Origin: Chromera velia
Lineage: Eukaryota
Direction of reading: 5' to 3'
Assembly: GCA_018398765.1 (NCBI GenBank)
Contig: JAHBMJ010000134.1
Span: forward strand, 1-55,649
DNA length: 55,649 nucleotides
Part shown: piece by piece, positions 25,363 to 52,350 of the stretch
How positions within the stretch are numbered: the first letter of the stretch is position 1
Layout: each line of letters begins with the position of its first letter
Made by a program: the position numbers and the translations under genes
The notes under the pieces: model-generated
The model's input: only the letters and a program-made list of their open reading frames with translations
What the model was told of the DNA's origin: nothing
Database searches by the model: none

Positions 25363-26389
25363 CGGAAAGTGGGAGACACACTGTGGGGCTTTCGCCTTCC
25401 CGTCTCTGCAAGTCAGGCGGAGACGGCGTCAGCTGCTGGCCAAGACTTTCAGAACAGTGGAGTCAAATTGAAACTCATGCAGCGCAGAAGAGGTTGTCTG
25501 CAGTCAGCAATTTCAATCTGACTACGCATTGCGAAGTCCACAAGGGTGATTGACAATACTTGACGTTCGGATCATTTTTGATCCTCCAAAGATTTTTGGT
25601 GTGCTTCATTACTGATCCGTCTCTCCAAAAATTGCAGCTATAGCTCGGCAGAGCTCGGCTCCATGCAATCGGCGGCGGCCAGGTGCGGGCCTGGCTAACG
25701 GGTGGGCGGGCCGGCCTACCAACGGTAACCAACCGCGGCAGGTTCCGTTGGCCAAGAACAAATATCTTAAAATTTATTTCCTCAAAAAAAAATTAATTGC
25801 CCTCCATCGTTCATTTCTGATCACTGTTTTTAGGTGCACATGAAAATCAGTGAAAATTCAGAAAAATTTGAAAAATTGAGTGAAAATTAATTGGTTTCAA
25901 ATAAAATTATTCACTTTAAAAATGCCTAAAATAACACAACAAAATACATTATTTGATTTAACAATCTTGAAAAATGTTTTAATACACCCAATAACTTTCT
26001 TTTAATTTATTTTTTCTATTTTTTATTTATTTTTACTACTAGTTTTCTACACGTGCGTTAGTTCTTTGTGTGTTGTCTTGAAAACTGTTTTAAAGAGTGT
26101 AGTTAGCCTTTATAAGCTTTCAACAGCTCTTCTCGCCCCGTTCAAGCTGTGATGCACGCCGTTCAAGCTCTTAAGATACGATAACGTATACAAACATATC
26201 GATTAAAACATGTTCAAGGGATTATGTTCGCGTTAGTTCGAGCTGCGCGTATACCCTATTCGTACACTTAAACAGACTCGACAATCTATCTTCAAATTGG
26301 ATCTCTTCATTGCAAGTCAATCGGTTAGAAGGCACATCATCTGAACTTTCTGACCATCTTCGACTGCCAGTGACAGCGCGCCGTATGGA

Positions 26390-30462: not shown

Positions 30463-31855
30463 GAGACCTCGCGCGCGCCGTGCGCAGAACGAGCGAGAGG
30501 GGTGCAGCATCTGCTCTCGCTCTGCGCCGGTCGAACTTGCCCGACGACTTGCACACAGCCTGCTCGAGTCTTCTGCAGGTGCTGCACACGCTGGTGGAAC
30601 AGCAGCCCCCCCCAGAAGCCGAGCGGCAGGCAGAGGATCCGACAGGGAGGGGACTCGGCCCGGGGGGAGAGGAGGAAGGCTTTGAAGTGGCTGACCTCTT
30701 TGCCGCGCTGAAGCTTCAAGAGGAGTGGGAAGCCGAACTACAGAGCGAGGAGGTGGCAAGGAGATTGCAGAGAGAGGACGACGTGAGAGCAGGAACGGAG
30801 GCTGCTAGAAACGTGCAGAGAGAGGAGGAGGAGGCAAAAGCATCGGAAGAGACTGCAAGACGTCTGCAGAGAGAGGAGGACGCTACAGAAGGGGAAGAGA
30901 CCGCGAGGCGTCTCCAAAGAGAAGAAGAAGAAGCTCGGTCTTCGAGCTCAACCACCCCTACACCATCGGAAGAGACTGCAAGACGTCTGCAGAGAGAGGA
31001 GGACGCTACAGAAGGGGAAGAGACCGCGAGGCGTCTCCAAAGAGAAGAAGAAGAAGCTCGGTCTTCGAGCTCAACCACCCCTACACCATCCGCAGCAGCC
31101 TACGATGGTCAGCATTCAGAACTCACTCCCGAAGAGATGGAGTCTGCGCAGAGGCTGTTGTCGCCTGAGCAGAACGCAAGTCTGAGGAAGATCCGCAATG
31201 GGGGCGCCAGGCCCGTTCTGGGCGTTCACAGTGCCGAAGATGTCAGAGTTTTGGTTGCCCACACTGTTCTCTGGACACTCCAGAGACGGGTGTTCGGGGG
31301 CTTCGTTCGTGACTGGGTGATTGGCCAACGCAGTGCGTCCACTGATATCGACGTGCTTCTGCATGACGAGGACGACCCGGTAGAGATGGCCAATAGACTG
31401 ACGGACGCAGTAGAGGCTGCAGGGGTGCGTTCGAATGATGTCATTGTGCGCCAACCGTTGCAGAGGGGTATCGCTCACAAGCTGGAGATCGTTTGGGCAG
31501 GTGAAACGATAGAGGTTGACCTGGTCAGACCCTCTGACCGTCCTCGGAGTCTCCTCCCTTTGTGGACAGCGACGCGAATAACTTGGTCGTGGACCGATTT
31601 GGCGTGCAGCTATTGGAGAGGGTGCGTGTGTGCGGAAGGCCGCTGCCTGACGTGTTGACCAGCGCTCTCCATGCACACCAGAGAAGTTTCATCTTTTTTT
31701 ACCAACTGAACGGAGAGATGGCACGCGGGAGGCTGCGAAAATTTTGGGAAAAGGGGTGGGTCTGTCTGAACGACATTCCGTCCCGCGAGGTTCCCTCGCA
31801 TTCTGACCTCTACAGGCCTGAAGCGAGGTTCTCTCGAGAGAAGTGGTACACCTAG
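30463..31855 (+). CDS. Repeat-containing class II nucleotidyltransferase-like protein; last exon, one frameshift near 31545
   Basis: VFGGFVRDW (31290-31316), DIDV (31344-31355) and EVDL; homology to ORF 50637-51470 continues in the -1 frame (ORF 31562-31855: DSDANNL...FIFFY...RLRKFWEKGWVCLN). Upstream exons are probable (ATG candidate 29024) but unresolved. Confidence 0.75.
30841..31086 (+). repeat. In-frame 123-bp (41-aa) tandem duplication
   Basis: 30841-30963 is repeated at 30964-31086; each copy encodes two EETARRLQREE motifs. Confidence 0.95.
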
Positions 31856-35950: not shown

Positions 35951-37292
35951 GTTACAAATTATGTAAGACTTTAACCTGGGGAAATTAACCATAGATTTGA
36001 AAGTAGATCTGCATGAAGGTGCTAGCAGTAGTTCATAATATGGATCGTCTCAATTATAATATTTAGGCTAAATTGCGAGTTGAATCCTTTCTACTAAGTG
36101 TCTAGAATCCCTTTGATTCAATCAAGCTTGGAATGCAAGTTTAATCTAACTTCATTCAAGTCGAGGCGTTCAAAATTCAAACGCCACACCAGTTTACAAG
36201 AATCATTTTGGCAATCAATCCGATTTATTCAATTATATTCAATGAAATGATCCAGGCGAAAACACAATCTTATATACACACATGCTGTGACATGCACGCC
36301 TGTGACGAAACTGAGTCTGACGACAGCCAGGATAGATTTTTTTTTTGAAACGAAGAAGTGGACAGCGACAAAAAATGATGGATAGGGGTGGACTGAGCAG
36401 CCATCCAACTGTTCATCCTTCAAATATGCATGCATGCATGCATGAATGAATGAATGGTTTTCCTGTGCTCATTGCGCGAGCCGCGCTCCCAGCGGCCCGC
36501 AGACATGCAAACCAACGTCGATCACCCACCTAAAAGAGCAAAAGGTGACTGCAAGACCTGAGCTATTTGCATCAAGTTCGTTCACCGTCTCTTCGTTAAA
36601 CAGGCGAGGGTGCGGGATGATACTCTGCTTGTCCTCCTCTTACACTCGATTTCTGATTTTGATGATGAGAGGAGCTGAGTAGGCGGAGAGAACGCAATCC
36701 CGGTAGGCTGCCCCACCCCGGTGCAAAAATGTGTCTGGAGGAGAAGACGGACGCAAAAAAGGAGGAAGGCAGGTGCAGCCAAACGATGAAGACAACGAAA
36801 GAACAGAAGAAAGATTACACAAAGTACACGACACTGAACAGTGACTGACAGGGAGGGTCTCATTGAGTTCATGCAACATTGGACGGAGCATGCAGCCATT
36901 CAGTCAAAGACGAAATTAAGTGGATTGTTTATTTACACCGTTCCTCATCTTCCCTTCACCTGTAAAAATCCATCAGGCACCAGGAGAAGACGCGAACAAA
37001 CGAAAAAGTCTAACTATGATTGAGAGCAAGCAGCTTCACCCGTCTCTGCCCGGGAAAGCTGTATCTCTCTCCTCCGAGCCTCTTCTCCATCTTTCCCCCT
37101 CCGCTCTCCCCTCCCCTCCTTTCCTGTCCTGAGTGCGGACAGAGGAAAAATAGAGAGAACAAGGGAACAGCCGAGCAGAGAGAAGAGAGGACGACCAGGT
37201 GATGGCAGCAGAGCCCGCCACTATCCCTGCCTGCCATCACACACTCCGACTCTTTTCCCGGCTCTCCCCCCTCCCCTCCTTCCTCCCCCCCC

Positions 37293-38910
37293 TCACTTCC
37301 CCATCTTGTGGCCCCTCCCCCCCTCGTTGTGGCGGGGCGTGGAGAAGATCGTGGAGATGCCCTCATGTGTCAGAAGCCACTCGTACCAGACGTAGTGCTT
37401 GTCGTCGCAGCGCCAGATGCTGAAGCTGCACGGGGAGAGTGGAAGGGACAGAGACGCACGGGGATACGTTCAAATTTCAGGAAGGGAGACAACCCGAAAA
37501 AAGGAGGGATGCACTGTTTTTCAGTCTGTAGAAAAAAAAGGAAAAGACGGGCAGGCAGGAGGAAGCTGGCACGACAGCAATGATGCCTGTGTTCGTCTTT
37601 CTTCATTCACTGTCCTCTTTTCACTCTTCTCCACCCCTCTCCCCACTTTTCCGCCCCCACACTTCATTCCCGCTTTTTGTGGCCGAAAAGCAGTTAAGCA
37701 TGCACCAAGCCAACCTACTGACGTAATTTTGTCGCCCTTCTGGACAAAGATCGGCTCCATGATGGGAAAGAAAATAGGCCACCAGGAAGCCATATCCTGG
37801 GTGTACGTCTCCTTCACAATCGAGATCGCAATAGGGCCGTACAGATCCGCGTAGAAGTACCCAGCCATGCCGTGGACCACAGCATCGATGGTCATGGTGA
37901 AGTCGACTTTGGTGTGTCTGCGGTTGTGCGCGTTCGAAGGGTCGATTTTCTTGTTGGGGTAATGATCAAAGGTGAACAGAGGCTGCGCACCCTGTACGGC
38001 GGGGAAGTAAGCGGAGTGGATATAGACGACGAGGGGAGTCTCGAGGAACTTTTCTCCCAGCTTCTGCAATCATGAATGACACAGGAAAAGAGGGAGAAAA
38101 CAGTAGGAGCAGACAGAAAAAAGAAAAAGTAATAGAGACGGTGTCAAGCAACCCCGACACGAACCCTTTTGCTTTCCTCATCGGGACGGTGCCCGACTGC
38201 GGGAAAGAGGCAAACACGACGACAGACGACAAAAAAGAGTGGAGAGGTCAACAAGACGCTCAATGCCGGGAGAAGAGAGGTCGAGCTAGAGCTGCACTCT
38301 ATCTGAGACTCCCCTTCTAAAATGCATGACCCTGACATCACTCGCGTGTTCCTTCCCTTCCTCCGTTGCCCCCTCCTTCCATGCTCTCTCCAGCTGCCTG
38401 GCACTGTCTGACCGACAAACCTTGGCGTCTGTCCAGAGCTTCGTGGAGGACACGGGACGGGCGTAGGACACGGAGCGGTGAGGGATCGAGACACCCCCTT
38501 CCTTCAGGAGTCTCTGCGCACCGTCGAGACACTCAGGGGAGAGTTCGTTGTCCCCGAACGAACCCAGGAGCTCTGACACCATGATGTCGGCCTGCTTCTC
38601 CAGATTCACGTTCTGTCTCATGTCGGAGCTGACAATCTCGAGCTTGCTCCAGAAAGGACACTCTGCCTCGAGTTTCTTCTTGTCCGTCAGGGTGATCACG
38701 GCATTCGGGTTCTTCTCGAGGGCCACGAGCTTGATGTTCTGCACGCACGTAGATTGGTGAGTGAAGACTTGAATCAGTACAGGCCCGTTGAGCTCGGCCA
38801 GATGAAAATTGGTAGGCATGGCTCTCTCTCTCTCTCTCTTACTTACACACACACATACACACAACGACATGCACACACGCACACATGCACGCACACATGC
38901 ACGCACACAA

Positions 38911-38989
<79 letters not shown>

Positions 38990-40186
38990 GAGAGAGAGAG
39001 AGAGAGACGCCTGCAGTAAAAGAAGAAACAGGAGGAAAGGCACACACAAAAAAAGAACGTACCACCAGAAAACCTCGAGAGTGAAATACCAAAGAGCTAC
39101 ACTGAATGAATGCTGCAGGGGATCGGAACGGTTGCATGCCAGTGGGAGCAGCAAAGCATGATCCCGTGTTCACAATACGTACAGCTGGGCACACATTCAT
39201 ACGGATAGGATCTAAGGACATTTATTCAAATCAATCGCATTCAGACCGACCTTTGTGCTCATCTCGACTTCTTTGAGGGCCAGGATACAGGCAGTCACCA
39301 GAGGCCCCCTTCCCGCTCCCACAACGATCAAGACCAGAGGCCCTTCCTCTCCCGTCCTCTCCAACACCTTCGCTTTCAGAGTCAACTTGACGGCCACTTT
39401 GTACCGCTCATACTTGACGTAGTCCATCTCGAAGACGGAGTACACGCCAGACTCGAGGTTGTCCTGCAAGGAGGAAAGGAACAGAAAACAAAAAGAATGT
39501 ACGGAAAACGCGAGGAAAATTGACATCAACCGACAAGCTCGAACGCCCGCACACGCGCATGCACTTTTTCTCTCTCACGCACACAGACTACATCGTTTCT
39601 TCTTTTGCTTTTTCTCTTTTTTCATTCTCTTCTTTTTTTTCTTTTTTCTTGTGGCGCGCTCTCAGTGGAAGGGTACCAGAGCTCCGGGCCTTGAGCGTAC
39701 CCTGCTTGCCCAGTGCAGAGACAGATAGACAGACAGACAAAGACACAGAAAGAGAGAAACAGACAGACTATATGTTTCTTCTTCTCCCTTCTTTTCTTCA
39801 TGGACACAATAGACAAAAGAAAGAAAGCAACAAAGACAAAGGAACATCACGACAACTCAGACAAAGTGGGCAGGGGGCCCGAAAGGTGAGAGTTAAGCGC
39901 CCCTTGCCTCTCCACCTCCCGACAGACTTTCACGTGATCACTGGTTTCACACGCTACTCCTCTGCTGCTTCCACTCAAGACAAGAAAGAGAAGAAAAGAA
40001 AACAAGGCAAGAAAAACCAACAAAAATTAAAAATGACAACAAAACGAAAAAAGAAAACTGCACGTGGGGACCGGCACCGTCATGTTCTTTAGACAGAGGT
40101 GGGGGGGTGGGGGGGCGTCCCTGACACAGACAGACAGACAGACAGACAAAGAAAGACACAGAAAGAGAGAAACAAACAGGCAAGCA

Positions 40187-40227
<41 letters not shown>

Positions 40228-41592
40228 GCACACGCGTGCGCGCGCACACACATGCAGAGAGAGCGCGGGCGCGGAGAGGGGCGAAAGGGAAAGGAGGAGG
40301 ACATGCATACAGACGTGACAGGCAGGTTCTCGCAGGAAAACCGAACACAGCTTCTTGCAATGGTGGTGTGCGAAGGAAAGAACAACCGGACGGCCATTTC
40401 AGATCGGTGTGAGTGTTCAAAGAAGGCCGAGGAGTCTGGAAGAAAAACCCACCGCCAGAGGTTGGAGGGGGGGCTGCAGGCAGTTCTGGTCCCTGTGCCC
40501 AGCCCTCTCGACCAAGTCGAGTTTCTTGATCTCGTTCCACAGCTTCTGGATACAATATCTGTACCTCTCAAAGTTCCGGACGTCTTTGTCTTGTGCTACG
40601 TCAATTTGCAAAAGCAATATTGCTTTTTGCCGCAAGAAGCGGTGCACAACCTGGGTGTGACGGTCCGGAAGTTGGGGGCACCCGTGGGAGTTTTCAAAGA
40701 AACAATCAGATGGAATGATCACTGCGGTGACTTGCTCTGACCACCACCGATCAATATAGGGGAATGCAGGAAGCTCTTTGGTCATCACCAACGCAACGGA
40801 CAAATTCTGCAGGTCACCGCACTTGTCTTTCATGCTGTTGTAAACATTCCACCCGTCACACGTGTCCTCACTGGTGCGCCCCTGCTCGAGAACGCGGCGC
40901 CGTTCTGTCTCGTTGTCTTCGTCAGAAAGGTTCGAAAAAGAGGCCAATGCAGCCGCAGCACCGTTCGCGGGGGCCGGCACATCTTCCATGGGGTGCCTCG
41001 ATTCGGCTGCTGATGCTGCTGTTGGTGCTGGGGAGGGGGGGGGGCTTGCCGCTGGGACTTGCGGATCAAGGCCGCCGTCAAAGTGTTGGGGGTCCATGGT
41101 GAAGGGGATGCGGAGCCAGACTCTGCACTGCTGGGCGGACTGGGTGCTCAGCACCCCGTGAAGGGCATCTGCGTAGCGTTTACAGTCAACGCTGTCGGGG
41201 GTCGGCAGAATGCATGTATACATTCCCCAAAACGCTGCCAAGTCTATCTCCTCTCGGAGGGCGTCAGCGCTGTAATTCTTGAACTCTTCGGACACCCTGT
41301 CGGAGTCTGTTGAAATCCAGGAGGACACAACACCGACACCGGAACCCGCCCTATCCTTTAGGTCCACATAATTAGTAGAGGCTGCCAAGTCATATTCGCT
41401 TGGCAGGTCCTTCCCATCCTGCTCCAGGCAGGGAGGGAGCTTTGTCAAGGGAAAGGCCACAAAGTCCAACTGTTCCTCATCGATGTGTTTTTGCAGGTCC
41501 TCGGGCTCATTGAACCTGTCGATCTGTCTTCCGAGAAAGCAGATGTCGAGCTCTTGCTTGTTATCATCTGCATCAAATTTTTGGATCGGCAT
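37293..41592 (-). CDS. PRMT5: Protein arginine N-methyltransferase 5, 5 exons, 714 aa predicted
   Basis: Exons 41592-40453, 39463-39251, 38738-38421, 38063-37723, 37425-37293 (2145 nt, phases consistent). Motifs: LQPPLQPLADNLES, VVGAGRGPLV, EKNPNA, SELLGSFGDNELSPECLDG, SWWPIFFP, VWYEW, HNEGGR. Confidence 0.95.
38820..39007. repeat. (CT)n/(CA)n/(GA)n microsatellite in a PRMT5 intron
   Basis: Dinucleotide runs read directly. Confidence 0.9.
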
Positions 41593-42577
41593 TGCTTGTG
41601 CAATCCGCAAACAACTACGAAAAACCTCAAACCAGCAGAAGGTCCATAGGAGGAGACGCGAATGACGGTGGGCAGTTGATGAGTCGACAGGCAAATTCAG
41701 AGACTTTTCACATGAAGGTGGTCAGCGATTAAGGGAAAGAACTTCAGATCTCAAAGTCCCTTGAACACGGTCCATACCCTTGTCTTTGCAGAGTTGAAAA
41801 TACTTGAAAGACGTTGAACAGATTTTCCCAGTGCTGCTGAAAATTTCGGAGGCCTGATGAGGCCTTAAAGGTGAGTGAGAGACCTTGGCGAGGTTTTTCT
41901 TCCTTCGTTCTGTCGAAACTGCTCCGATCGTTGGCATTTTGAAGAGACGCGGTGAGGGACCACTGAGGGTCCGGCCCGGTCCGCGGCAAATTCATGCAGA
42001 GGCCCCAGTCAGGACTAGTCAGGACGTCAGCTATAGGACCATATGGCCTCGCTAAGTCTGCGCACCGCGCGGCCGCGCGGCCCTCGGCGCCCTCGAGCGC
42101 CCCGCGCCGCCCGCGCGGCATGCTTAATTCGGGGCCATTATAGGATACACTGGGCCAGAGCGAGAAAGCATGACTGGAGGCGGAGAGGGAGATTTGGTTC
42201 TGGCCTTGGAAGTCGAAGACTGCCTGGCGCTGCACCCTCCTCTTAGAAACAAATCTTCTTAGAGCTAGAGGAGGTTGACAATGTGCTGACTAAATTGATC
42301 CATTCTTCTTCTCGGTCATTGATGCAGCGTACAGCTACATGCTTGGTAGAAGTTCTTCTCCTCCTAGCATGAGTCGGTTTTCCACCTTGGCCTCTTTTTC
42401 CTCATTAACTAGTACTGTATGCCAGAGGTTTTTTATCCAGGACCACTCTAGGGAGTGGGCCAATCGACTGTATGCATGATCAGATACGTAGCGTGCAGCG
42501 GGTAATACCGAGCAGTTGCGTGATACATGTGTATGGGGTGGAGGTACTACCCAGATGGGCAGATGCTCCCATACCTC

Positions 42578-42649
42578 CCCTTAATACCTAGTACCTAATA
42601 CCTAATAGGTATTAGGTATTAACACCTAATAGGTATTAGGTATTAAGGG
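42578..42649. repeat. 72-bp quasi-palindrome built from TACCTAA/TTAGGTA heptamers
   Basis: Begins CCCTTAATACCTA and ends TAGGTATTAAGGG, with internal inverted heptamer copies. Confidence 0.8.
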
Positions 42650-43190
42650 CCATGCAATTTCGGGCCCTGGCGGCGCCGCGGCCCTGGCAGCCCTATATAG
42701 AGGCGCCGTATTAATTCATGCATGGCTCGGCCGGCGCCGGGCGCCGAGTTATGGCGCCGAGCCAGGCTCTGCGCATGCAGCACGTACTGCGCTTCGATCA
42801 ACGGCGGAGACGGCGTGGAGAGACGGAATCGGAATAGCTACCGGATTGCTTTGTGAAACAATTCATGCTTTCCAGGATATCAGAAAAGTGCCTGCCAGCA
42901 GAAAAAAGTCAGCCGTCGAGCCTCTAATTGCTCCGAGGCAGCAGTCCAGATCAGCCAAGATTGATCGTTTCCGGGATGACGAAAGCAGACACCAGTCCAT
43001 CAGTTCATGACGTGACACCCTCCCGTTTCTCACTCTCGAAATCCGGTGGACGGTTCCAGTCAGATGTGCAGATCGGACGCGTCTATACGTGGTGATCTTT
43101 CTATACTGTTGACCCGTCCTGTTGCCGACATTTTTGAGCTGTGCTGTTTCCATTTTTTCCCGTATCCATACTGGTGCCTGATCTGTGAGA

Positions 43191-45579
43191 ATGGACTCCG
43201 AAAAGATGGAAGAGGAGGTGCTCACCTATCTGAGAAGGCAGACCTCTTCTCAGACGCAGCTTGACTGTGCCTTGAGAAAGCTTCAAGAATTGCAAATCTT
43301 CACGTCTGCAGACCTTGCTTGTCACTCCACAATTGTCTCGAACATTTTGCGCTGCTCGGTAGATGATGCCTTCGCTGGCTCTGCGCCAAATGGCTGCTAT
43401 GCAGCTCCAGAAGTGCACGCCGAGTCAGTCACCCACATTCCCACGGCCTTGAGCTCTGGAGGCCAGCAGGAGGGAGTGGCGACTCGTTTTTGTTCTCCTC
43501 TGCCCTCCAGAGGTCAGGCCGAAGGAGAGAACACCCGCGTTCCCACCCCTACTGACTCAGGTCACGGCAACCGTCTCCCCACACATCAGCCAAGAAGCCA
43601 TGTAGAAGCTGCCGCTGCTCTTGTTACTTCGGCAGGCCAGTTCGCTGAAGTGCTCTCCTCTCTCCCGCCCCACGCCGCTGCCGGGGCGCTGCTGGTCCAT
43701 TCCGGACCCGGGTTCTGTGACGTTCTTCTGCCTCTTGAGAGACGCGATAGGAGCATCCGTCCCCTCGTTCACGTTTTTGGAGGGAGGGTGGAGACGGTCG
43801 TTCAGAAGGGGAAGGGGACAGTGCCTGAGTCTGCTGCCACCACTGCATCCCGGGAGTTGGTGGAAGAACTCGGGTGGGACAGACACCTCCCTTCTCACGC
43901 TTCCCACAGTGAATTTGTGACAAGCATCCTCGGACTGCCGTCTGCCAAGAGCCTCCGCAAGCCTTTCGAGACTGCATTCCAGAAACTTCCTCGACTGATG
44001 GTCATTTTTCAGGAAGACGGGCGGTACGTGCTCTTCGTCCTGAACATCTCCCAGGTGAGTGCATCTCTCCAACAATCCATCATCAGCGCTCCCGCAACGC
44101 ACAGGCGCTCGATCGAGGTGGAGGCCCTCGCGTGGGTGCCTGTGGCTTCTCTCCTTGAAGCAGAGAGAGGACGTCGCACCAACCTCGTGGTAGAGAGCAG
44201 ACCGAGCTGGAGTCTCTCGACGCCCTCTGTCTTTGAGATGTCTGCCTTTCTCCAGAAACTGTTGCAGAACACTGCAGTGACAGCAGCCCTCGAAAGCCAT
44301 ACCGGCAGAGTCCATCGTCCCCCTTCAAGTGCGACTGCTGCATCGGTGAGTCCCTTTTTAATTTTCTCCTGCTCCTTTTTCATTCCGCCCTTCTTTGTGA
44401 CTTCCCTCCCGCTCCTTTTCCTCTTCGTCCTCCTCTTTTCTGCTGTCACTGTCATTTCTCTGAAATCTGCTTCTGCTTCCCTGTCAAGCACGAAGCCGAC
44501 CATGTATGCACCCAGTGAAATTCCTTCCACCCTTCTTCTCGACCAACGTCCCCTGCAGAGCCACGTGGCCGCTATGGGGGCAGGAGCAGAACCCCAACAG
44601 AGAGGCCATCCCCGAGTTCCTCCCCTCTCTCTGCCCTCCAACACAAACGTTACGCGGGGAGCAGAGCCTGCAGACAGCGCACTGACCTCAAGGACGCTGA
44701 CCGCTCAGGACACCGAGAGAATGCTCACTCAGCTGCCTCTCCGCATTCCCACTGCAGGAGCACCCACCCAAGAGGTGGAGGAGCCTGAGGGGAAAATGTT
44801 CATCGCCGCCGTCGTTGTCAGGTGCGCCCTCCCCTCCAGAGGCGCGAGTGCCTCCTCGTCTGCTGACTCCTCGAGTGTGCATCGCTCCTTCTCACCCCCC
44901 GAGGTCGAGGTCCTCGTCCGCGTGGCACCCCCTCCCGATGCCTCCCATGACGGCAGCGGGCTTCCCGACCGCGTGACTCCTGTGCTGAGTGTGATGCACA
45001 GCGTGTTAGACACCGAGAGCCGCCCCTGCGACGACGTCCTTCAGGCAGCCGCGGTGGGCCATGTGGATGACGTCCTGCAACAGCACGGGGTGGGGGTGGG
45101 GTCTGAGGATGTGGTGACTGCCAGCTTTCCTGTGAAGGATCGCCGGCAGGGCCTGTTTGCTGTCGTGCAAGTGTACCCCTTCTCTCCGGGAAGTGCTGGC
45201 CCTGGTCTGCAGGACAACTCGGGGCTTGTGTGGGTGCCCCTGGAGGCCCTCTGCGCAGTCGCACACGACGAAATCAAGGGCTTGCGCCTTCCCACTTCAC
45301 AGCTACACCCCTCTGTGAGACGGCAGCAGAGCGGTGAGGGAGGGGGGCGGGTCGTGTGCCGTCCTGACTTTCTTGCCCGCAAAGTGTTCGGAATGGGAGC
45401 GGTGGGTTCACGTGTGGTGGAGTTTGCGTATTTCGGGCTGGAGAGTTTCTTCGCCCAGCAGGCCGAAGCAGAGCTCCGTCGCCTCGAAGCCCTGCGAGGT
45501 GACTCCCTGATTCGTGAGCTTGTGGGAGACCCCCGACAGCTCTGGCTAAAGCTCCAGGCTCCCCCCCCTCCCCCCCCCC
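43191..45579 (+). CDS. Nudix hydrolase domain-containing segment
   Basis: FGGRVE(insert)PESAATTASRELVEELG at about 43776-43874 matches the Nudix box; downstream EVEALAWVPVASLL is a typical Nudix strand. Confidence 0.8.
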
Positions 45580-48500
45580 NNNNNNNNNNNNNNNNNNNNN
45601 NNNNNNNNNNNNNNNNNNNNNNNNNNNNNNNNNNNNNNNNNNNNNNNNNNNNNNNNNNNNNNNNNNNNNNNNNNNNNNNNNNNNNNNNNNNNNNNNNNNN
45701 NNNNNNNNNNNNNNNNNNNNNNNNNNNNNNNNNNNNNNNNNNNNNNNNNNNNNNNNNNNNNNNNNNNNNNNNNNNNNNNNNNNNNNNNNNNNNNNNNNNN
45801 NNNNNNNNNNNNNNNNNNNNNNNNNNNNNNNNNNNNNNNNNNNNNNNNNNNNNNNNNNNNNNNNNNNNNNNNNNNNNNNNNNNNNNNNNNNNNNNNNNNN
45901 NNNCCCCCCTGCAGTTGCTCCCATGACCTCTGCATCGGACCCTGACTGGTCAGAGTTCCAGAGACACAAGAACAAACTCCCAAATCCAGCTGCCGTAGTT
46001 GGGGGGTGGAAAGTGCGAGTGGCTAGTCAGGAAAAAAAGGTACAAGGAGGCGGAGAGGAAGGCACAGGGCGACAGTTCTGCCAAGCAGCTGGAGGTCTAC
46101 CACGGGACTCCAGACACTTGGCGTGCCCAGAACATTGCCTATAGTGGGTTCAACACCGGCATCGCCCTGCATGGACGCAGCATGGGTGACGGCGTGTACA
46201 CAGCCCTCAGTCCCGCAGTTCCGTCTCAGTTTCAGAAGGGGAAGGGGTCGATTCTCGCATGTCGTGCCTTGTGGAAGCAGGGGGACGCAAAGAATGGGGA
46301 GGTTCGAGTATTCAGACAGGGGGAGAGAGTTCTTCCGAGATTCATCTTTGACTTCGCTGCACTGGACGCACAGGGGCGGCAGGTACGCGCGTGCCCCCTT
46401 CTTCCTTCCTGCCCTTTTTTTGTTTTGTTTTGTTTGACGTTTCACGTCTTGCACTTTTGTCGGGTTGCATGCCTGTCTGCCTAGCTGTTTCACTGTCTGC
46501 TGATATCCATCTGTTTGTTATCTATCTGTTTGTTCCAGTGTGTGTTGATCGTTGGTTCCTTCTTTCAAATGTTGTCTAAGCGTCTGCCTGTCTATGTGCT
46601 TGCTTAGTTGTCTTCTTGGTTTTGCCCTCCCCTTCATCTGCCTGTCTCCTGTTATTGCTGTCTGGTTGTTCGGTTGGTCGCTTTTGCGTGGTCCACTCTC
46701 AAGGAGTGTCTCCTCACTGTCTACCAGATCGACGCGAATCCATGAGACAGGAAGGACTGGTTGCTCCTTCGATGGTACTTCCTGGCTGTTGTTGTCGTCA
46801 ATGCCCTAGCTCTCTTTGTTGTCTCAAGCCTATTTCTGAAGACAGGGGCAAATATCTCCGTTCGAGACAACCCATGGAACGAATCTTTGCTCCCTTCTCC
46901 TTCCTTCAATTTTCGTTGCGTGCAGGTCCGCTCGAGTGCTGGCGAGACGGAGGAGGAGAAGCGGAAGATGATGGAGGAGATGGTGCGCAGGCATGAGCGC
47001 CTGAAGCAGCTTGCCGCAGCCGCAGAGAGGGACGGCAAGCAGAAGCTCCTCAGTTACTGTCAGAAAAACGTGCAGACCGCACGACAGTGTCTGAACGACC
47101 TGAAGAGGGAGACCGATGGATGCCGAGACGATCTGGCAGCCTCCCGACGCAGGCTGTGCCTCCGGGCAGCTCAAGAGATCTATGAGCTTGCAGCGATGCT
47201 GCCAATTTATTCAATGAAGAGGCAGATCGTTGACATTCTCAAGCAGAGCACCGTAGTGGTTCTCTCCGCACCGACAGGCAGTGGCAAAAGCACCACTGTG
47301 CCGCAGTGGATGCTAGACCATGTCCTCCCTCTCCCATGCAGGCGAGCTCCTGAGTCTGAGTCTCAAGTCTCCGCCCTCACACCAGGCAGCCAATCAGATC
47401 CCTCTGATCCCCCTCCGCCCCTCTCCCTTCCCTCCATGCCCCACCGCAAGCTCGCAGTGCTACAGCCGAGGCGCGTGAATGCCAAGTCTCTGGCCCAGAG
47501 AGTAGCGCAGCAGCGTAACGCGAAAGTCGGTCTGGGGTCCCAGATTGGGTACCGTCTCGGTTTTGGAGACGCGATGTCCACTGCCGGGCAGACCGAGCTA
47601 GAGTACATGACACATGGCGTCTTCATCCGCATCGCACGAGATCCCGTCACCTTCTTCCGCAACTACTGGGGGGTGATTGTGGACGAGGCCCACGATGAGA
47701 GCACAGACCTCGAGGAAGCTCTTGCTCTTGTCCGCAGGCTTTTGTGGTTTGCGCGAGACTCCTCGTTTGCAGCAGAGGCCACCAGGCAGCCTCCCGAAGA
47801 GGCTGCTGTTGGAAGAGAGGAGGGGGGGTTGGGGGAAGGGGACTCTGCAGTGGCAGAGAGGGAGAGAGAGAGGGATCGTCGGAGAATGGAGGAGTGGGAG
47901 AGGCAGTTGGAAATTGCGAAAAAGAATTTCAAAGTAGTGGTCATGAGCGCAACTATTAGCTCCCAGGGGATGCATCGGCTCCGAGATTTCCTTCTCCAGG
48001 GTCTCCCGTCTTCCGAACTCCGCAATGACCCCCAATTTTCTCAGATTGTTCAGTGTGGAGAGACAGGTCCCAATCCTGTCTCCCACTGTTTCCCCGTGCT
48101 TGATGAATACAGGGACGAGTGCGATCCCGGCCTCGGGCCGAACGACCACGTGAATTTCCAGACAGCCGCGGGGCTTGCAGACATGGGTATGGAGATCGCG
48201 ATTGAAATGCTGCAGAAGCCGAGCGAGAAGGGGCACATTCTCGTCTTCCTGCCGTCCGAATCCCTTGTTCGTCGCTCTGTTCTGACGGCGAGACGGGGGC
48301 TCAACTACAAGCCTCCTCCTGGTCAAGGGGGAGGTTTTCTCTTCCGATTCGGTCGCCTTGCGCGTGCCGTCAGGCGATTGGTAAAGCGGGGGGGGGAGGA
48401 GAATGATGAGGAGGGTGGTGAGGAGGACTCGTCTTTTGCAGTCGACCTAGGCTCAAGGGGGTTCGAGGGGAAGCTTGAGGGGGCTGGGGGGAACAGTGTG

Positions 48501-51470
48501 GGGGTGTACCCATTCTACTCTTCTCTGGGTCTGACCCACCAAATGTCCGTGCTTGAAAAGGCGAAGAGCAGCAATGTGCGGCTGGTGATCTGCACGACAA
48601 ATGTTGCAGAGACAGGGGTAACGATTCCGAACGTGAGGTATGTGATAGACACAGGATTGGAGAGGGTGGTCAGGTGGAACCCCAAAATGGGTATGAAGGA
48701 AATGGTGACGGCGATGGCGTCGAGGTCCTCCCTTGAGCAGCGCAGGGGCCGTGCAGGCCGCACGGGGACGGGTATTTGTGTGCGGCTGTACAGCAAGGAG
48801 ACCGAGGGGCAGTTGAATATGCAAGCAGAGCCCCGCATCGCCTCCGATGAGCTGCTGAAGCTAGTGCTTCGCATGCAGGGCCTCCCTGACAGGGATAGGT
48901 TTGTGCTGTTGAATGGGGGGGCGCGTCATCAAGAGAACGTGCGTGATGCGAAAGCATGGCTGGGTGCGGTGGGTGCTCTCGACGAGAGTGGAGCGCTGAC
49001 TGACAAGGGCCGTGCTCTGCTCGGTCTCGGCCTCGACGTTCGCACTGGTCTCTTCGTGCTCGCATGCAACGAGGATGGCTGCCGTGTGCTTGCGTCAGGT
49101 CTGAAGATGGCTGCGATGCTCTCCCTTAGCGGGGTTGAGAGCCTGCTTCCTTCTGCTCCGTCTGCACGGTCAGCCGGTCAGTTTGCGATACAGCAGCAGG
49201 AGGGAGACGGAGACGGAGGTAGCGTGAGGGTGGGAAGGGACGATGACTGTTTTGACATTGACCCCTCAGGTGACCACCTGACTCTTTTGAATATTTTTGA
49301 GGCGGGGAAGAAAGCCATGGACAGGGGGGGAAAGCAGGGGCTGCGATCGTTTTGCGAGAACAACAACGTGGGGTTTGAGAATCTGGACGAGGCCATGCGG
49401 GTGCACAAACACCTGCTGACAAGCATTGCGGAGTCTGCCCATCTGAAGCGCTGCCTTGACATTAGCGACCAGCTGCAGGGCGACGACCGCCGTCAGGCGC
49501 TGCTTCAAGCCCTGTGCACAGCATTCGAGTGTAACCTTCTGCTGCTGAGAAATCCCGGTGACCCAAGAAAGGGGGGGTTCACTCCCTTTATGGACGAGGA
49601 GAGGCGGGCAGAGATTTTAGAAGATCTCCACAGATTCAGAGAGGCTTTCGCAGTGAATGCGCTTTCCCCCTTCCCGTCTGACGAGGGGGGGGACGAGACG
49701 TTAGGCACGGGTTGTTCAGATGGTGAGTCCGACAGACCTAGTGTTGAGGCATTGGCCTTGCGTAGGGCAGGGGTTGCACAGGCAGCGACTGCGGGGCGAG
49801 GGCTGCGAGGAGGGGAGAGGGAGGCAGATGACAGAGAGGTGAAGGATGTGACCTTCGTTCTCGGTTCCAAGTCTGTCATGCCCCTAGTTTCCCGGCACGA
49901 CACCCTCTTCCTCCTCCCGGGCCCCCCACAGAGCCAGGAGGTGGCCCTGTGCCACACCCGACTCATCACCGATTCCCGAACAGCCACCCCTGTCGTCCAC
50001 ATCGTCTCGTATGTGAGTCCTGAAATAGTCAGTCAGGGCAGTCCGCAGCTTGGACAGCAACTTGAGGATCTCCTTGCAACCGCCCCCCGAGTGAGAGAAG
50101 AGTTCCCACAGGGGGGGCGGGCGGGAGAGTTTTTCGAAAAGAGACAACTGTTCCGCTTCAAAGCAAACAGGGGGGGGCTCTTGAGGGATTTCCGCTCCCG
50201 GTTTCCCGAGGCAGAGGTGAGTCTTCTCGAGGAGAGTGACGGTCGAGGTCGTGTTATTCTCAGTGGGCCCGAGAATATGATGGCCTCTTATCAGGCTTTT
50301 CTCTCTCTCGGTGCTGATGGGGGCACTGATGGTTCTGCTGACGAGAGCGGCTCCTCTGTGACGGCTTTCGAGTTGAAGATCAAGAAGCTCCTCGACGCTG
50401 CCGATGCAGCGGCATTGATACGCCGAGCGGACTTTCAGAAGAAGATGCGATCAGTAGCAGAGGGGGTGTTGCTTGAGGCCGAGCGCTTAGGTGTTCGCAA
50501 CTTTGTTGATGCTCGTTTCAAGGAGACGAGCGGCAACCCGAGGGCGTCAGAGGCAGCCGCAGCGAGCTGAGCCCAGAGTCAGGCCTCCTTTGAGGACCCC
50601 TCTATTCTGATTGAGGTCGCTGCCCACGCCCTCCCCTTGCTAGGCGCTTTGCTCGGCAGAGCCCATGTAGGCCTGGAGCGGGCGTGTGGTTTGAACAAAC
50701 CCTTGCGCCCCCTCCACCTTGCCTACTCTTTGAAGCAGAGCAAGGTGGCACAGGCGGCAGAGACGAACAAGAACCTGGCGATGATGACCTCCTCGTCCTT
50801 CCCCCTTTCTGCCTCTGGGGTGAGAACCCAAGAGGATGCTATCGTGGCAGTCGCACACGTCATCATCCACAAACTCAAGCGAAGCATTTACGGTGGATTT
50901 GCGCGTGACTGGGTGGTTGGGGGAGGGGCGCAGAATGGTCGCCCTGTGAATGACATCGACGTCATTCTCGACGATCGCGACGACTCCCAAGCGCAGGCGC
51001 AGGTCACCGCGCTCACCCAGCACCTTGCCCCTCTTCAATTTGTTCTGACCAGCAACACCCCTGCCTCTGGCGGCGCGGTGGCGAACAAGGTCAGGCTCAC
51101 ACATCGCCCTACAGGGTTCGGTGTCGAGGTAGAATTCACCCACCCTGCACGCAGGAGGCAGATCAGCACCTCTCCCGGTGTGGAGCACTCAGCGAGTAAC
51201 TTGATGATCTCTACCAAGGGGCTGGACACATTCGTCAAGAAAGGTCCGAATGGTCGCCCTCTGCTGGATACGGCGACGTCCGCACGGCATGCGAAGGACA
51301 AGATGTTTGTGTTCTACTACAAGCCTGAAGGGAGGATGCCCCAAGAGCGGCTGCGGAGGATTTTTCAGAAGGGCTGGAAGTGCCTGAACCAGCTGCCTCC
51401 CCAGTTAGTGCCCAATCCCTCCCAGCACCAGCCCCAGGCACAGTACAACGTGAATTGGTGGGAGTATTGA
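43191..51470 (+). CDS. Large multidomain gene: Nudix + ADP-ribosyltransferase + DEAH helicase + nucleotidyltransferase; disrupted as assembled
   Basis: Exon 43191-44345; intron to about 44558; exon through the N gap to 46382; phase-0 GT-AG intron 46383-46925; exon 46926-51470. Needs a +1 shift at the A7 run 46032-46038 and readthrough of TGA 50568-50570. Continuity across the gap is assumed. Confidence 0.7.
45580..45903. other. Assembly gap (324 N) within a poly-C tract
   Basis: Run of N. Confidence 1.
45923..46382 (+). CDS. PARP-like ADP-ribosyltransferase catalytic domain
   Basis: YHGT (H at 46101), NIAYSGF, GRSMGDGVY (Y at 46197), ILACRAL, GEVRVF (E at 46299), RVLPRFIFDF. Confidence 0.85.
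46926..50570 (+). CDS. DEAH/RHA-family ATP-dependent RNA helicase segment
   Basis: APTGSGKST, QPRR, DEAH (47682-47693), MSAT, LVFLP, TNVAETGVTIP..VIDTG, QRRGRAGRT; HA2-like GALD...LTDKG and GDHLTLL. Confidence 0.95.
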   Translation, partial: VRSSAGETEEEKRKMMEEMVRRHERLKQLAAAAERDGKQKLLSYCQKNVQTARQCLNDLKRETDGCRDDLAASRRRLCLRAAQEIYELAAMLPIYSMKRQIVDILKQSTVVVLSAPTGSGKSTTVPQWMLDHVLPLPCRRAPESESQVSALTPGSQSDPSDPPPPLSLPSMPHRKLAVLQPRRVNAKSLAQRVAQQRNAKVGLGSQIGYRLGFGDAMSTAGQTELEYMTHGVFIRIARDPVTFFRNYWGVIVDEAHDESTDLEEALALVRRLLWFARDSSFAAEATRQPPEEAAVGREEGGLGEGDSAVAERERERDRRRMEEWERQLEIAKKNFKVVVMSATISSQGMHRLRDFLLQGLPSSELRNDPQFSQIVQCGETGPNPVSHCFPVLDEYRDECDPGLGPNDHVNFQTAAGLADMGMEIAIEMLQKPSEKGHILVFLPSESLVRRSVLTARRGLNYKPPPGQGGGFLFRFGRLARAVRRLVKRGGEENDEEGGEEDSSFAVDLGSRGFEGKLEGAGGNSVGVYPFYSSLGLTHQMSVLEKAKSSNVRLVICTTNVAETGVTIPNVRYVIDTGLERVVRWNPKMGMKEMVTAMASRSSLEQRRGRAGRTGTGICVRLYSKETEGQLNMQAEPRIASDELLKLVLRMQGLPDRDRFVLLNGGARHQENVRDAKAWLGAVGALDESGALTDKGRALLGLGLDVRTGLFVLACNEDGCRVLASGLKMAAMLSLSGVESLLPSAPSARSAGQFAIQQQEGDGDGGSVRVGRDDDCFDIDPSGDHLTLLNIFEAGKKAMDRGGKQGLRSFCENNNVGFENLDEAMRVHKHLLTSIAESAHLKRCLDISDQLQGDDRRQALLQALCTAFECNLLLLRNPGDPRKGGFTPFMDEERRAEILEDLHRFREAFAVNALSPFPSDEGGDETLGTGCSDGESDRPSVEALALRRAGVAQAATAGRGLRGGEREADDREVKDVTFVLGSKSVMPLVSRHDTLFLLPGPPQSQEVALCHTRLITDSRTATPVVHIVSYVSPEIVSQGSPQLGQQLEDLLATAPRVREEFPQGGRAGEFFEKRQLFRFKANRGGLLRDFRSRFPEAEVSLLEESDGRGRVILSGPENMMASYQAFLSLGADGGTDGSADESGSSVTAFELKIKKLLDAADAAALIRRADFQKKMRSVAEGVLLEAERLGVRNFVDARFKETSGNPRASEAAAAS
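50571..51470 (+). CDS. Class II nucleotidyltransferase-like domain (CCA/poly(A) polymerase head motif)
   Basis: IYGGFARDW (50886-50912), NDIDVIL, EVEF, SNLMI, RLRRIFQKGWKCLN; same frame as the helicase, immediately after the TGA. Confidence 0.8.
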   Translation, partial: AQSQASFEDPSILIEVAAHALPLLGALLGRAHVGLERACGLNKPLRPLHLAYSLKQSKVAQAAETNKNLAMMTSSSFPLSASGVRTQEDAIVAVAHVIIHKLKRSIYGGFARDWVVGGGAQNGRPVNDIDVILDDRDDSQAQAQVTALTQHLAPLQFVLTSNTPASGGAVANKVRLTHRPTGFGVEVEFTHPARRRQISTSPGVEHSASNLMISTKGLDTFVKKGPNGRPLLDTATSARHAKDKMFVFYYKPEGRMPQERLRRIFQKGWKCLNQLPPQLVPNPSQHQPQAQYNVNWWEY

Positions 51471-52350
51471 ATTTCTCTTCTCTTGCAGCTAGGGCAAAAG
51501 GTCCTTTGTTGTTTGTTCAGAAAGAGGCAAATACAGACAGAGAGGAAGAGGAAGAACTTTGAAGGCTTGGCAGCAATCGAGGGGGAAACGGGGGTAGGAG
51601 GAAGGTACAGGAGGTTCAAGTTTTACTGTAGGATTTGTGAAAGGGAAAGTGCGCACCCAGATCACCTCCTGGCAGGTCCATGGGAGGTCTCGTTGACGGA
51701 AAGACGGATGCCCAAGAGGGGGGAAGAAATGTGGGGTTCAGGCCGTTCAGCATAGTTGTGAAGAGTGCAACGTGGATGAGTGGCTGTCCGTCCTCAAAGA
51801 AATGCATTTTCGGGCGTTTGTGTGTGTGTGTGTGTGTGTTTTTGTGGTGGGCCCCTGAAAATTCTCACGCAGTTCAGTCAGCGGAGAGAAATGCATTTCT
51901 GTCACCAAAATGAAACCGCAGTTTTGAGAGATCTCAGACGGTGCAATGGCGCCTCCGAATGTTCGTCTGAGATGCACACGGGAGCAGCTCCATGAGAGCA
52001 GAAAGTTCAGAAAAAGATCCATCTCTGTGTGTCTGTAGAAAGCTTCATCGTGATCGACCGACCTTTTTCTTCTCTTATGTTCTGTTGGGTACCCATCACT
52101 GTCAAAGAGCGAGCAACACCATTTGCGCGGAGGGAGGACGGTTAGCTGGTAGGTGTGTGAGGCAGGCTCTTCATCTTCTCGATCTGTCTACGAGATTTCT
52201 CGTCCGTTTGACTGTCCATCAGCGGATTCTTCCGTCGTTTTGAGTAGAGAAGCCATTCAGAAGATGAAGTAGTGGAAAAATTCGAATTGGACCATCTGTC
52301 AGTCTGTATGGTGCTGCATCTTCTCTCTCCCTCTCTCTCTTCCTCCCTTG

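What the first reader, a model, noticed from the sequence alone, without database searches (positions are those of the whole stretch)
43191..51470. One gene combining Nudix, PARP-like ART, DEAH RNA helicase and nucleotidyltransferase: candidate undescribed RNA-sensing defence/signalling system
Seen: four enzymatic modules on one strand, with ART joined to the helicase by a clean phase-0 intron (46383-46925) and the NTase in frame with the helicase. Established: PARP-like ARTs transfer ADP-ribose from NAD+; Nudix enzymes cleave ADP-ribose, caps and dinucleotides; DEAH helicases bind and unwind RNA; class II NTases add nucleotides to RNA ends. Inference: a sensor (helicase), two writers (ART, NTase) and an eraser (Nudix) in one polypeptide is the logic of antiviral/conflict systems. 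I do not recognise this four-part architecture, although helicase-ART fusions alone may be known.
Basis: partly seen in the sequence, partly recalled or inferred. Interest (0 to 1): 0.9.

Follow-up and report, generated by a model that had tools for sequence, protein, structure and literature searches.

The report
Four-enzyme protist helicase-PARP gene family
This stretch is one copy of an unstudied protist gene family that joins a Nudix hydrolase, a PARP-like enzyme, an RNA helicase and a nucleotide-adding enzyme in one protein, likely to tag foreign or damaged RNA; as assembled, this copy carries a frameshift and a premature stop.

Summary
The four modules are real, in the stated order, and belong to one gene family. 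The 324-N gap sits in a poly-proline linker. Single proteins with Nudix-ART-DEAH helicase-NTase, often with a macrodomain, are recorded for oomycetes, a chrysophyte, a haptophyte, Carpediemonas and metagenomes; one relative has a spliced, cDNA-like contig with a 2,058-codon frame. All 25 NTase relatives of 1,500 aa or more also carry an ART and a helicase, in two different arrangements. The NTase is a CCA-enzyme-like head (AlphaFold pLDDT 92), closest to giant-virus and Gad2-like phage enzymes. The family ART keeps His and Tyr but not the catalytic Glu, so it is predicted to be a mono-ART. Ten literature searches found no description. Best reading (inferred, about 50%): an RNA-engaged tagging and defence enzyme. 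Boldest reading: an NTase that acts on ADP-ribose. No activity, expression or defence role was shown.

The parts
43191..44345 (+). Predicted exon 1 (ATG; 385 codons): variable N-terminus, then the Nudix domain (about 43650-44300) with an RExxEE Nudix box and an insertion inside the box
   Evidence: Pfam NUDIX E 0.005, below cut-off; family Nudix profile hhalign probability 98.5%, E 2e-15; 14 of 15 conserved columns kept
44346..44558 (+). Probable intron 1 (GTGAGT...CCCCTGCAG, 213 nt, phase 0, pyrimidine-rich; in frame and stop-free, so the ORF also reads through it)
   Evidence: sequence; inferred, no transcript
44559..45579 (+). Predicted exon 2: about 280-300 aa lineage-specific insert (possibly a decayed second Nudix-like repeat, unproven), then the family linker ending in poly-Pro
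   Evidence: linker match; second-Nudix test weak: 3.1 bits, 0 of 300 shuffles as high, but hhalign probability 1.7%
45580..45903 (.). Assembly gap, 324 N, flanked by poly-C on both sides inside the poly-Pro linker
45905..46038 (+). N-terminal part of the ART, in a different frame from its core; frame change at the 7-A run 46032-46038
46039..46382 (+). PARP-like ART core: H-G-T (His codon 46101-46103), G-x-G-V-Y, last strand E-V-R-V-F
   Evidence: 121 bits to the family profile; 23 of 25 conserved columns kept; tankyrase-2 best PDB sequence hit, E 0.48
46383..46925 (+). Intron 2, 543 nt, GT...AG, phase 0
   Evidence: inferred, no transcript
46926..50567 (+). Coiled coil, DEAH/RHA helicase (RecA1, RecA2, HA2, OB) and two degenerate KH-like domains
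   Evidence: Pfam DEAD and Helicase_C; Prp43 E 2e-43; family clade SH-aLRT 100; KH by family profile alignment and weak KH hits in relatives
50568..50570 (+). In-frame TGA in a variable loop of the second KH-like domain
50571..51470 (+). End of KH2 and the C-terminal class-II-like nucleotidyltransferase head (YGGFARD, NDIDV); recorded separately as a 228-aa protein
   Evidence: AlphaFold pLDDT 92, pTM 0.89; CCA-adding enzyme Z 9.7; Gad2-type clusters 0.95; P0155
30447..31855 (+). Second, stand-alone gene of the same NTase family about 19 kb upstream: acidic ETARRLQREE repeats, then an NTase broken by a frame change near 31545
   Evidence: 59 and 64 bits to the family profile in two frames; 37-46% identical to the first NTase; sister to it at SH-aLRT 94

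Best explanation
The locus is a diverged, as-assembled interrupted copy of a conserved protist gene family whose intact members are single 1,600-2,200-aa proteins (macrodomain optional, Nudix, PARP-like ART, DEAH helicase, KH, NTase) that likely act as RNA-engaged tagging enzymes in defence against viruses or mobile elements. Proposed cycle, each step inferred: the DEAH motor and KH domains load on an exposed RNA end; the Glu-less ART transfers one ADP-ribose from NAD+ to a phosphorylated RNA end or a nearby protein; the template-free NTase head adds nucleotides to the RNA 3' end or to the ADP-ribose; Nudix and macro domains trim or erase the mark and limit self-damage. Shown: the architecture, its conservation, the folds and the motif residues. 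Not shown: any activity, the substrate, expression of this copy, or a defence role. For this copy I put about 45% on a recently disabled allele or pseudogene, 30% on assembly errors in an intact gene, and 25% on a real stop that has uncoupled the NTase.
For: Family: the helicase search gave 8 relatives at 175-314 bits above a generic background of 165 bits or less. The NTase search gave 101 relatives; 25 of the 25 with 1,500 aa or more carry ART plus helicase, and 15 carry Nudix-ART-helicase-NTase in this order. Named carriers: Phytophthora nicotianae, Aphanomyces stellatus, Ochromonas danica, Chrysochromulina tobinii, Carpediemonas membranifera. L003 equals L022 at 100% minus one GT-AG intron between ART and helicase and has one 2,058-codon frame from Nudix to NTase. 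The window's helicase falls inside the family clade (28 rows, SH-aLRT 100). ART His and both Tyr are invariant in 26 of 26 members; the catalytic-Glu site is E in 0 of 26. Precedents: mono-ARTs PARP10/11/15 ADP-ribosylate phosphorylated RNA ends, reversed by macrodomains and NUDT16 (PMC6582358, abstract and passages). Signs of conflict: the NTase recurs in other fusions (helicase-ART-WWE, kinase-PARP, PARG-WWE, NTase-PARP); two NTase genes sit close together here and in L007 and L018 (2 of 28 loci scanned); nearest folds are giant-virus and phage proteins, and Atlas clusters are Gad2-type.
Against: No functional data of any kind. This copy has two breaks in about 2,400 codons and sits on the longest end branch of its clade (1.12). 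Its NTase keeps the fewest conserved columns of 27 sequences (20 of 26) and departs at near-invariant sites (third Asp to Glu, 2 of 92 others). Its ART has Phe where 26 of 26 have the second Tyr. The P. nicotianae protein forms one 90%-identity cluster of 12 records, which does not look like a hypervariable effector. No PADLOC model covers the ART or NTase. The ART and NTase domain counts use profiles built from family members, so they are partly circular; independent Pfam PARP support passes the cut-off in only P0224 and P0247 and is weak in the rest.
Confidence: 0.5

Rival explanations
1. The NTase acts on ADP-ribose rather than on RNA: it adenylylates (or otherwise nucleotidylates) the ADP-ribose made by the ART, giving a capped modification or a diffusible signal, with the helicase as the RNA-dependent trigger and Nudix/macro as the off-switch.
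For: The NTase's steady partner is ADP-ribose chemistry, not only the helicase: 39 of 63 relatives with more than 200 extra residues carry ART, WWE, macro or Nudix. Helicase-free fusions exist: kinase-PARP-NTase P0200, PARG-WWE-NTase P0211, NTase-PARP P0247. The NTase lacks the neck, body and tail that CCA enzymes use to hold tRNA (225-aa model; 152-166 residues align to 372-517-aa CCA enzymes). OAS1 adds 2-5A to ADP-ribose and terminates PAR chains (PMC7756014, passage).
Against: OAS is a different NTase class. The closest solved folds are RNA-end enzymes (CCA, FAM46). Some relatives are fused to RNA-binding CSD or RRM domains instead (P0163, P0181). Many short hits may be fragments, so 'WWE-NTase' need not be a stand-alone gene.
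Confidence: 0.25
2. A housekeeping RNA quality-control or repair enzyme: it heals or marks broken RNA ends (ADP-ribose cap, Nudix trimming, re-adding nucleotides) in stress, with no specific role in defence.
For: Conserved domain order from stramenopiles to a metamonad; high conservation among P. nicotianae records; CCA-like fold; TRPT1-type ARTs act on RNA ends (PMC6582358).
Against: Patchy occurrence (only 101 clusters among 1.84 billion representatives), broken and duplicated copies in this window, and repeated re-fusion in different orders are unlike a housekeeping gene.
Confidence: 0.2
3. In this organism the gene has split: a Nudix-ART-helicase protein of about 2,100 aa ends at the TGA, and the NTase is either decaying or made separately from an internal ATG (50781), as the public gene model has it.
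For: The TGA has no good intron bypass. P0155 is a separate record. The NTase is the most eroded part. A stand-alone NTase paralogue exists 19 kb away.
Against: The frame stays open for 299 codons after the stop with coding-like GC3 of 0.71. The stop cuts the second KH-like domain, and family-like sequence continues straight after it. There is no room for a promoter. The separate frameshift in the ART would still disable the upstream part.
Confidence: 0.25
4. Unrelated neighbouring genes that only look fused across a gap and an intron.
For: Gap, frameshift, intron and stop separate all four modules in the assembly.
Against: The same four modules occur in the same order and spacing in single proteins of many species, and one family profile aligns to all window pieces in order.
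Confidence: 0.02

Closest known systems
Unannotated database records of the same family (P. nicotianae F444_09781 / ETO74434.1, 'Nudix hydrolase domain-containing protein'; C. tobinii KOO35825.1, 'ATP-dependent helicase'; A. stellatus Aste57867_1962)
   Same: Same Nudix-ART-coiled coil-DEAH-KH-NTase order, same helicase clade
   Different: Recorded as single proteins; the oomycete ones add an N-terminal macrodomain. Their names and precomputed Pfam lists miss the ART and the NTase. The window copy has an extra insert and two breaks.
Vertebrate RNA-linked mono-ARTs (PARP10, PARP11, PARP14, PARP15; PARP13/ZAP)
   Same: Glu-less PARP domain combined with RNA-binding and ADP-ribose reader/eraser domains; PARP14 has writer and eraser in one chain (search listing); RNA-end ADP-ribosylation (PMC6582358)
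   Different: No fused DEAH helicase, Nudix or NTase in those proteins (recalled); no orthology shown
Class II CCA-adding enzymes / bacterial poly(A) polymerase head (Pfam PF01743)
   Same: Head fold, GG-x-RD and DxD motifs; Z 9.7, rmsd 3.7, 166 aligned; weak PolyA_pol hits in 10 of 55 aligned members
   Different: No neck, body or tail; a distinct C-terminal F-V-F-Y...R-L-x-K-Y...G-W-x-C segment; 13-20% identity
Gad2 (phage anti-Gabija protein, PF26128) and giant-virus NTases
   Same: Atlas feature score 0.95 to clusters where 12-41% of members carry Gad2; Foldseek E 6e-8, TM 0.5-0.6 to Mimiviridae proteins. Gad2 is a predicted NTase (bioRxiv 2023.05.01.538930, passages)
   Different: Those are viral; no sequence-level hit in phage genomes, viral contigs or prokaryote genomes
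OAS / RNase L and cGAS-like sensors
   Same: Logic of an RNA-triggered NTase; OAS1 also modifies ADP-ribose (PMC7756014)
   Different: Different NTase class; CD-NTases score only Z 6.1-6.7 on about 100 residues
DEAH11/12-like helicase-KH-RBR proteins, spliceosomal DEAH helicases, HrpA/HrpB
   Same: DEAH/RHA core, HA2 and OB; KH after the helicase in DEAH11/12-like proteins
   Different: Separate branches in the helicase tree; no RBR domain found; NCBIfam HrpA/HrpB scores far below cut-off

Membership tests
DEAH/RHA helicases | Motif I (GSGKST), II (DEAH), III (SAT), VI (QRxGRAGR), followed by HA2 and OB | tested here: met
   All four motifs read directly from the translation; Prp43 alignment extends through HA2
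Spliceosomal DEAH helicases or HrpA/HrpB orthologues | Groups with them in a tree; passes family cut-offs | tested here: not met
   Inside a separate 28-row clade, SH-aLRT 100, quick tree of 58 rows; HrpB 191 bits against a cut-off of 546
DEAH11/12-like helicase-RBR ligases | C-terminal RING-IBR-RING and shared helicase clade | tested here: not met
   No IBR or RING Pfam hit in the window pieces or type A members scanned; only 2 DEAH12-like rows were in the tree, on a separate branch
PARP-like (ARTD) ADP-ribosyltransferases | NAD+-binding His and Tyr in H-G-T and G-x-G-x-Y motifs | tested here: met
   Window has both; 26 of 26 family members have both. Pfam PARP above cut-off in P0224; the window piece alone has no Pfam hit
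Poly-ADP-ribose polymerases (H-Y-E) | Conserved catalytic Glu | tested here: inconclusive
   Glu in the window copy by alignment, but in 0 of 26 relatives; no structure of the ART was predicted
Nudix hydrolases | Nudix box G-x5-E-x7-REUXEE-x-G | tested here: met
   GG...RELVEELG with a 9-residue insertion; relatives pass the Pfam cut-off
Class II NTase head | GG-x-RD, DxD and third carboxylate on a CCA-type head fold | tested here: met
   Model pLDDT 92; Z 9.7 to a CCA enzyme; DxD kept, third Asp is Glu in the window
CCA-adding enzymes proper | Neck, body and tail domains for templating and tRNA binding | tested here: not met
   The protein ends about 225 residues after the head begins; only 143-166 residues align to 372-517-aa enzymes
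Gad2 | Phage-encoded PF26128 protein inhibiting Gabija | tested here: inconclusive
   Atlas similarity only; no Pfam Gad2 hit in 55 members (the Pfam copy used may predate that model); host is a eukaryote
CD-NTase / cGAS / OAS signal synthases | Class I pol-beta fold with a C-terminal helical lobe; makes cyclic or 2'-5' oligonucleotides | tested here: inconclusive
   Listed at Z 6.1-6.7 only; product not testable here
The four-enzyme family described here | All four domains in family order and helicase in the family clade | tested here: met
The four-enzyme family described here | One uninterrupted reading frame after splicing | tested here: not met
   Frame change at 46032-46038 and TGA at 50568-50570 in the assembly; reads over these sites were not available
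Antiviral or conflict effector | Activated by foreign RNA; protects against infection | not testable with these tools
   no functional data

The most novel reading that the evidence does not exclude
Protists have an undescribed innate-immune pathway built on a virus-related, head-only nucleotidyltransferase that acts on ADP-ribose. A DEAH helicase senses foreign RNA, a mono-ART writes ADP-ribose, the NTase converts it into a new nucleotide-extended mark or second messenger read by WWE and macro domains, and Nudix destroys it. The ART-NTase pair has been re-assembled several times with different sensors (two helicase clades, a kinase, PARG-WWE).
Probability: 0.22. Interest if true: 0.92.

Novelty: new variant of a known kind. 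Interest (0 to 1): 0.7.

Why it matters
Little is known about how protists detect viral RNA. This family puts a likely RNA motor, an ADP-ribose writer, one or two erasers and an unannotated NTase on one chain in species from at least three eukaryotic supergroups. Database names and precomputed Pfam lists miss the ART and the NTase. The steady pairing of this NTase with ADP-ribose domains gives a direct, cheap biochemical question: what does it add nucleotides to? The answer could be a new RNA mark or a new signal molecule. The window's own copy is a poor test subject because it is diverged and interrupted; intact relatives are better.

Tried and rejected
No whole genome is held for this window, so other paralogues could not be counted. 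RNA evidence for this copy: no RNA holder listed; contigs of 4 of the 5 same-species runs gave only 18-36-base chance pieces on 45910-51780, which says nothing about expression or about the two breaks. A word-index search with the NTase among longer proteins found nothing; the full HMMER scan then found 102. A single-sequence fold failed (pLDDT 33); the 55-row alignment worked. Introns to bypass the TGA or the frame change: none with a convincing donor and acceptor that spares conserved sequence. Second Nudix in exon 2: weak, left open; the Atlas could not be asked. SAM-like N-terminal domain: suggested by eye in some relatives, but the window scored no better than shuffles (184 of 300 as high); rejected. 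Viral or prokaryotic members: none confirmed among 24 and 59 pattern matches or in phage records; these are motif-limited searches, not proof of absence. The inverted NTase piece at the start of L022 is a 100% copy of that contig's own end and was dropped from the count of neighbouring NTase genes; loci L029-L048 (short weak matches) were left out. The NTase tree (56 rows, quick) is poorly resolved and does not sort by architecture, so no order of fusion events is claimed. The careful helicase tree did not finish; the quick tree is quoted. Two PARP surveys have zero occurrences of helicase, Nudix, nucleotidyl or oomycete (PMC2964712, PMC4245714; term counts only). PMC9503650 passages do not describe this combination. 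A 2016 review on RNA repair systems was not held. No supplements were read; domain-architecture tables in comparative-genomics supplements could list this family. No complex prediction was run.

Full report
WHAT IS IN THE WINDOW. The region is a nuclear gene of a eukaryote: it has GT-AG introns, and the neighbours are a spliced PRMT5 gene, a threonine synthase piece and an LTR retrotransposon. No call named the organism. From the ATG at 43191 one frame runs to a 324-N gap at 45580-45903 and contains a Nudix domain (Pfam E 0.005; hhalign 98.5% to the family profile). After the gap come a PARP-like ART, a 543-nt phase-0 intron (46383-46925), a 1,214-codon helicase frame, a TGA at 50568-50570, and 299 further codons in the same frame holding the NTase. 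The stop, and a frame change inside the ART at the 7-A run 46032-46038, were missed.

THE GAP AND THE BREAKS. In relatives the linker before the ART reads, roughly, W-x-L-x-L-x-x-P-P-x-x-P then I-x-x-L-x-x-x-D-P-x-Y. The window's pre-gap edge ends in that poly-Pro and the post-gap edge starts in it; the two match profile positions 42-79 and 87-120 (7 bits each, weak), so the gap most likely stands for a few bases in a poly-C run. The post-gap ART strands are in another frame from the H-G-T core, and the switch falls at the A run. Homopolymers are typical sites both of assembly error and of real slippage (general knowledge). No splice pair explains either break well. The protein collection holds the NTase as a separate 228-aa record. 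No reads over these sites were available. By eye, the exons of the neighbouring PRMT5 gene show no such break (not a formal test), while the second NTase gene in the window is also frameshifted. That leans slightly to real decay in this family.

THE FAMILY. Searching with the helicase gave eight relatives well above the generic DEAH background (175-314 bits against 165 or less). P0005 of Phytophthora nicotianae (2,019 aa) reads macro-Nudix-PARP-DEAH-KH and ends in the same NTase. An HMMER scan of 1.84 billion representatives with the window's NTase gave 102 hits, one being the window's own. Of the other 101, 25 are 1,500 aa or longer and all 25 carry an ART and a DEAH helicase (profiles built here from family seeds). 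Eighteen are 'type A' (ART before the helicase; 15 with Nudix, 7 with macro). Seven are 'type B' (helicase, ART, WWE, NTase; Pfam WWE in 7 of 7 and PARP at E below 0.001 in 5 of 7). Named type A carriers are Phytophthora, Aphanomyces, Ochromonas, Chrysochromulina and Carpediemonas; named type B carriers are Paulinella and Pedospumella. P0267 (type A, 'gene8903') and P0202 (type B, Pedospumella 'gene8904') have consecutive numbers in the same naming style, which suggests neighbours but was not checked. A profile of 22 type A proteins aligns to the window pieces in order, and runs through the TGA as one 850-bit hit. In a 58-row helicase tree the window's helicase lies inside the type A clade (SH-aLRT 100), apart from type B, DEAH12-like, Prp/DHX and Hrp rows, on the clade's longest end branch. 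Metagenome loci show spliceosomal introns and eukaryotic neighbours. L003 matches L022 at 100% but lacks one GT-AG intron between ART and helicase and has a single 2,058-codon frame from Nudix to NTase: a cDNA-like record of the whole architecture in a relative. No viral or prokaryotic member was confirmed.

THE DOMAINS. Helicase motifs I, II, III and VI are intact. The family ART has His and two Tyr in 26 of 26 members and no conserved residue at the catalytic-Glu site, which predicts a mono-ART; the window copy is unusual in having Glu there and Phe for the second Tyr. The NTase folds confidently with its alignment (pLDDT 92, pTM 0.89). Its best solved matches are CCA-adding enzymes (Z 9.7, rmsd 3.7, 166 aligned) and FAM46, and its best overall matches are uncharacterised giant-virus proteins (E 6e-8) and Gad2-type clusters. 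It is a head without the neck, body and tail. The window copy keeps 134 of 150 conserved columns overall despite its long branch, so it was under purifying selection for most of its history; its NTase is the most eroded of 27 (20 of 26).

HOW IT MOST LIKELY WORKS. Inferred: the helicase and KH domains engage an RNA; the ART puts one ADP-ribose on an RNA end or protein, as PARP10, 11 and 15 do on phosphorylated RNA ends (PMC6582358, abstract and passages); the NTase adds nucleotides; Nudix and macro domains reverse or trim the mark, as NUDT16 and macrodomains do in that paper. The NTase's partners point at ADP-ribose: 39 of 63 relatives with long extensions carry ART, WWE, macro or Nudix, and helicase-free fusions with kinase-PARP, PARG-WWE and PARP exist. 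OAS1 adding 2-5A to ADP-ribose is a precedent from another NTase class (PMC7756014, passage). A defence role is inferred from patchy occurrence, shuffling, local duplicates, broken copies and virus-like relatives. Against it: no functional evidence, and strong conservation among P. nicotianae records.

NOVELTY. The sequences are in public databases under generic names, so the proteins are not new records. Ten full-text searches returned no paper on this architecture; I saw listings only, except for the passages and term counts cited. Subscription papers and supplements were not seen. Earlier notes of this scan report a rotifer helicase-KH-NTase-PARP gene and a Naegleria zinc finger-NTase gene. 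I did not test them; they are leads that would widen the same module, not support. I rate it a new variant of a known kind (RNA-linked PARP-type multidomain proteins), with an unprecedented ART-plus-NTase coupling. Interest 0.7: the family is a strong, testable lead, and the copy in this window is its least reliable representative.

Noticed in passing
window 30447-31855 (+): Second gene of the same NTase family, without helicase, preceded by repeated ETARRLQREE segments that resemble ubiquitin-binding MIU/UIM helices (resemblance recalled, untested); frame change near 31545; upstream exons not worked out.
   Followed up: partly
window 8514-about 12000 (+): LTR retrotransposon pol (aspartyl protease, RT, RNase H) with an in-frame stop at 9891-9893 inside the RT.
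   Followed up: no
window 26390-28429 (-): 679-codon frame joining a glucan-water-dikinase-type Ig-like N-terminal domain (Pfam Ig_N_CWD1, E 4.5e-12) to a KH domain (E 3e-17): a starch-binding plus RNA-binding fusion, head to head with the second NTase gene.
   Followed up: no
window about 37290-41600 (-): Spliced PRMT5 gene, divergently oriented to the finding; exons look unbroken by eye.
   Followed up: partly
window 24874-25428 (-): Threonine synthase N-terminal exon (Pfam E 1e-23).
   Followed up: no
window 42590-42650: Short repeated and inverted AT-rich units (tacctaat / attaggta) upstream of the finding, flanked by GC-rich palindromic stretches; similar GC-rich stretches lie upstream of the second NTase gene near 28630-28700. 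Seen by eye only.
   Followed up: no
P0122, P0006, P0147; loci L015-L019: Haptophyte-like members carry an insert in the HA2 region, and stand-alone NTase genes carry repeats, that look like diverged WWE domains by eye (Pfam WWE only E 0.0017 in P0180).
   Followed up: partly
L007 1830-3384; L018 2-4596: Two different NTase-family genes side by side: tail to tail in L007, in tandem in L018.
   Followed up: partly
P0176, P0202, P0209, P0185, P0222, P0204, P0194: A second, separately derived helicase-ART-WWE-WWE-NTase family (Paulinella, Pedospumella and unnamed sources) with about 700-1,200 unannotated residues between helicase and ART.
   Followed up: partly
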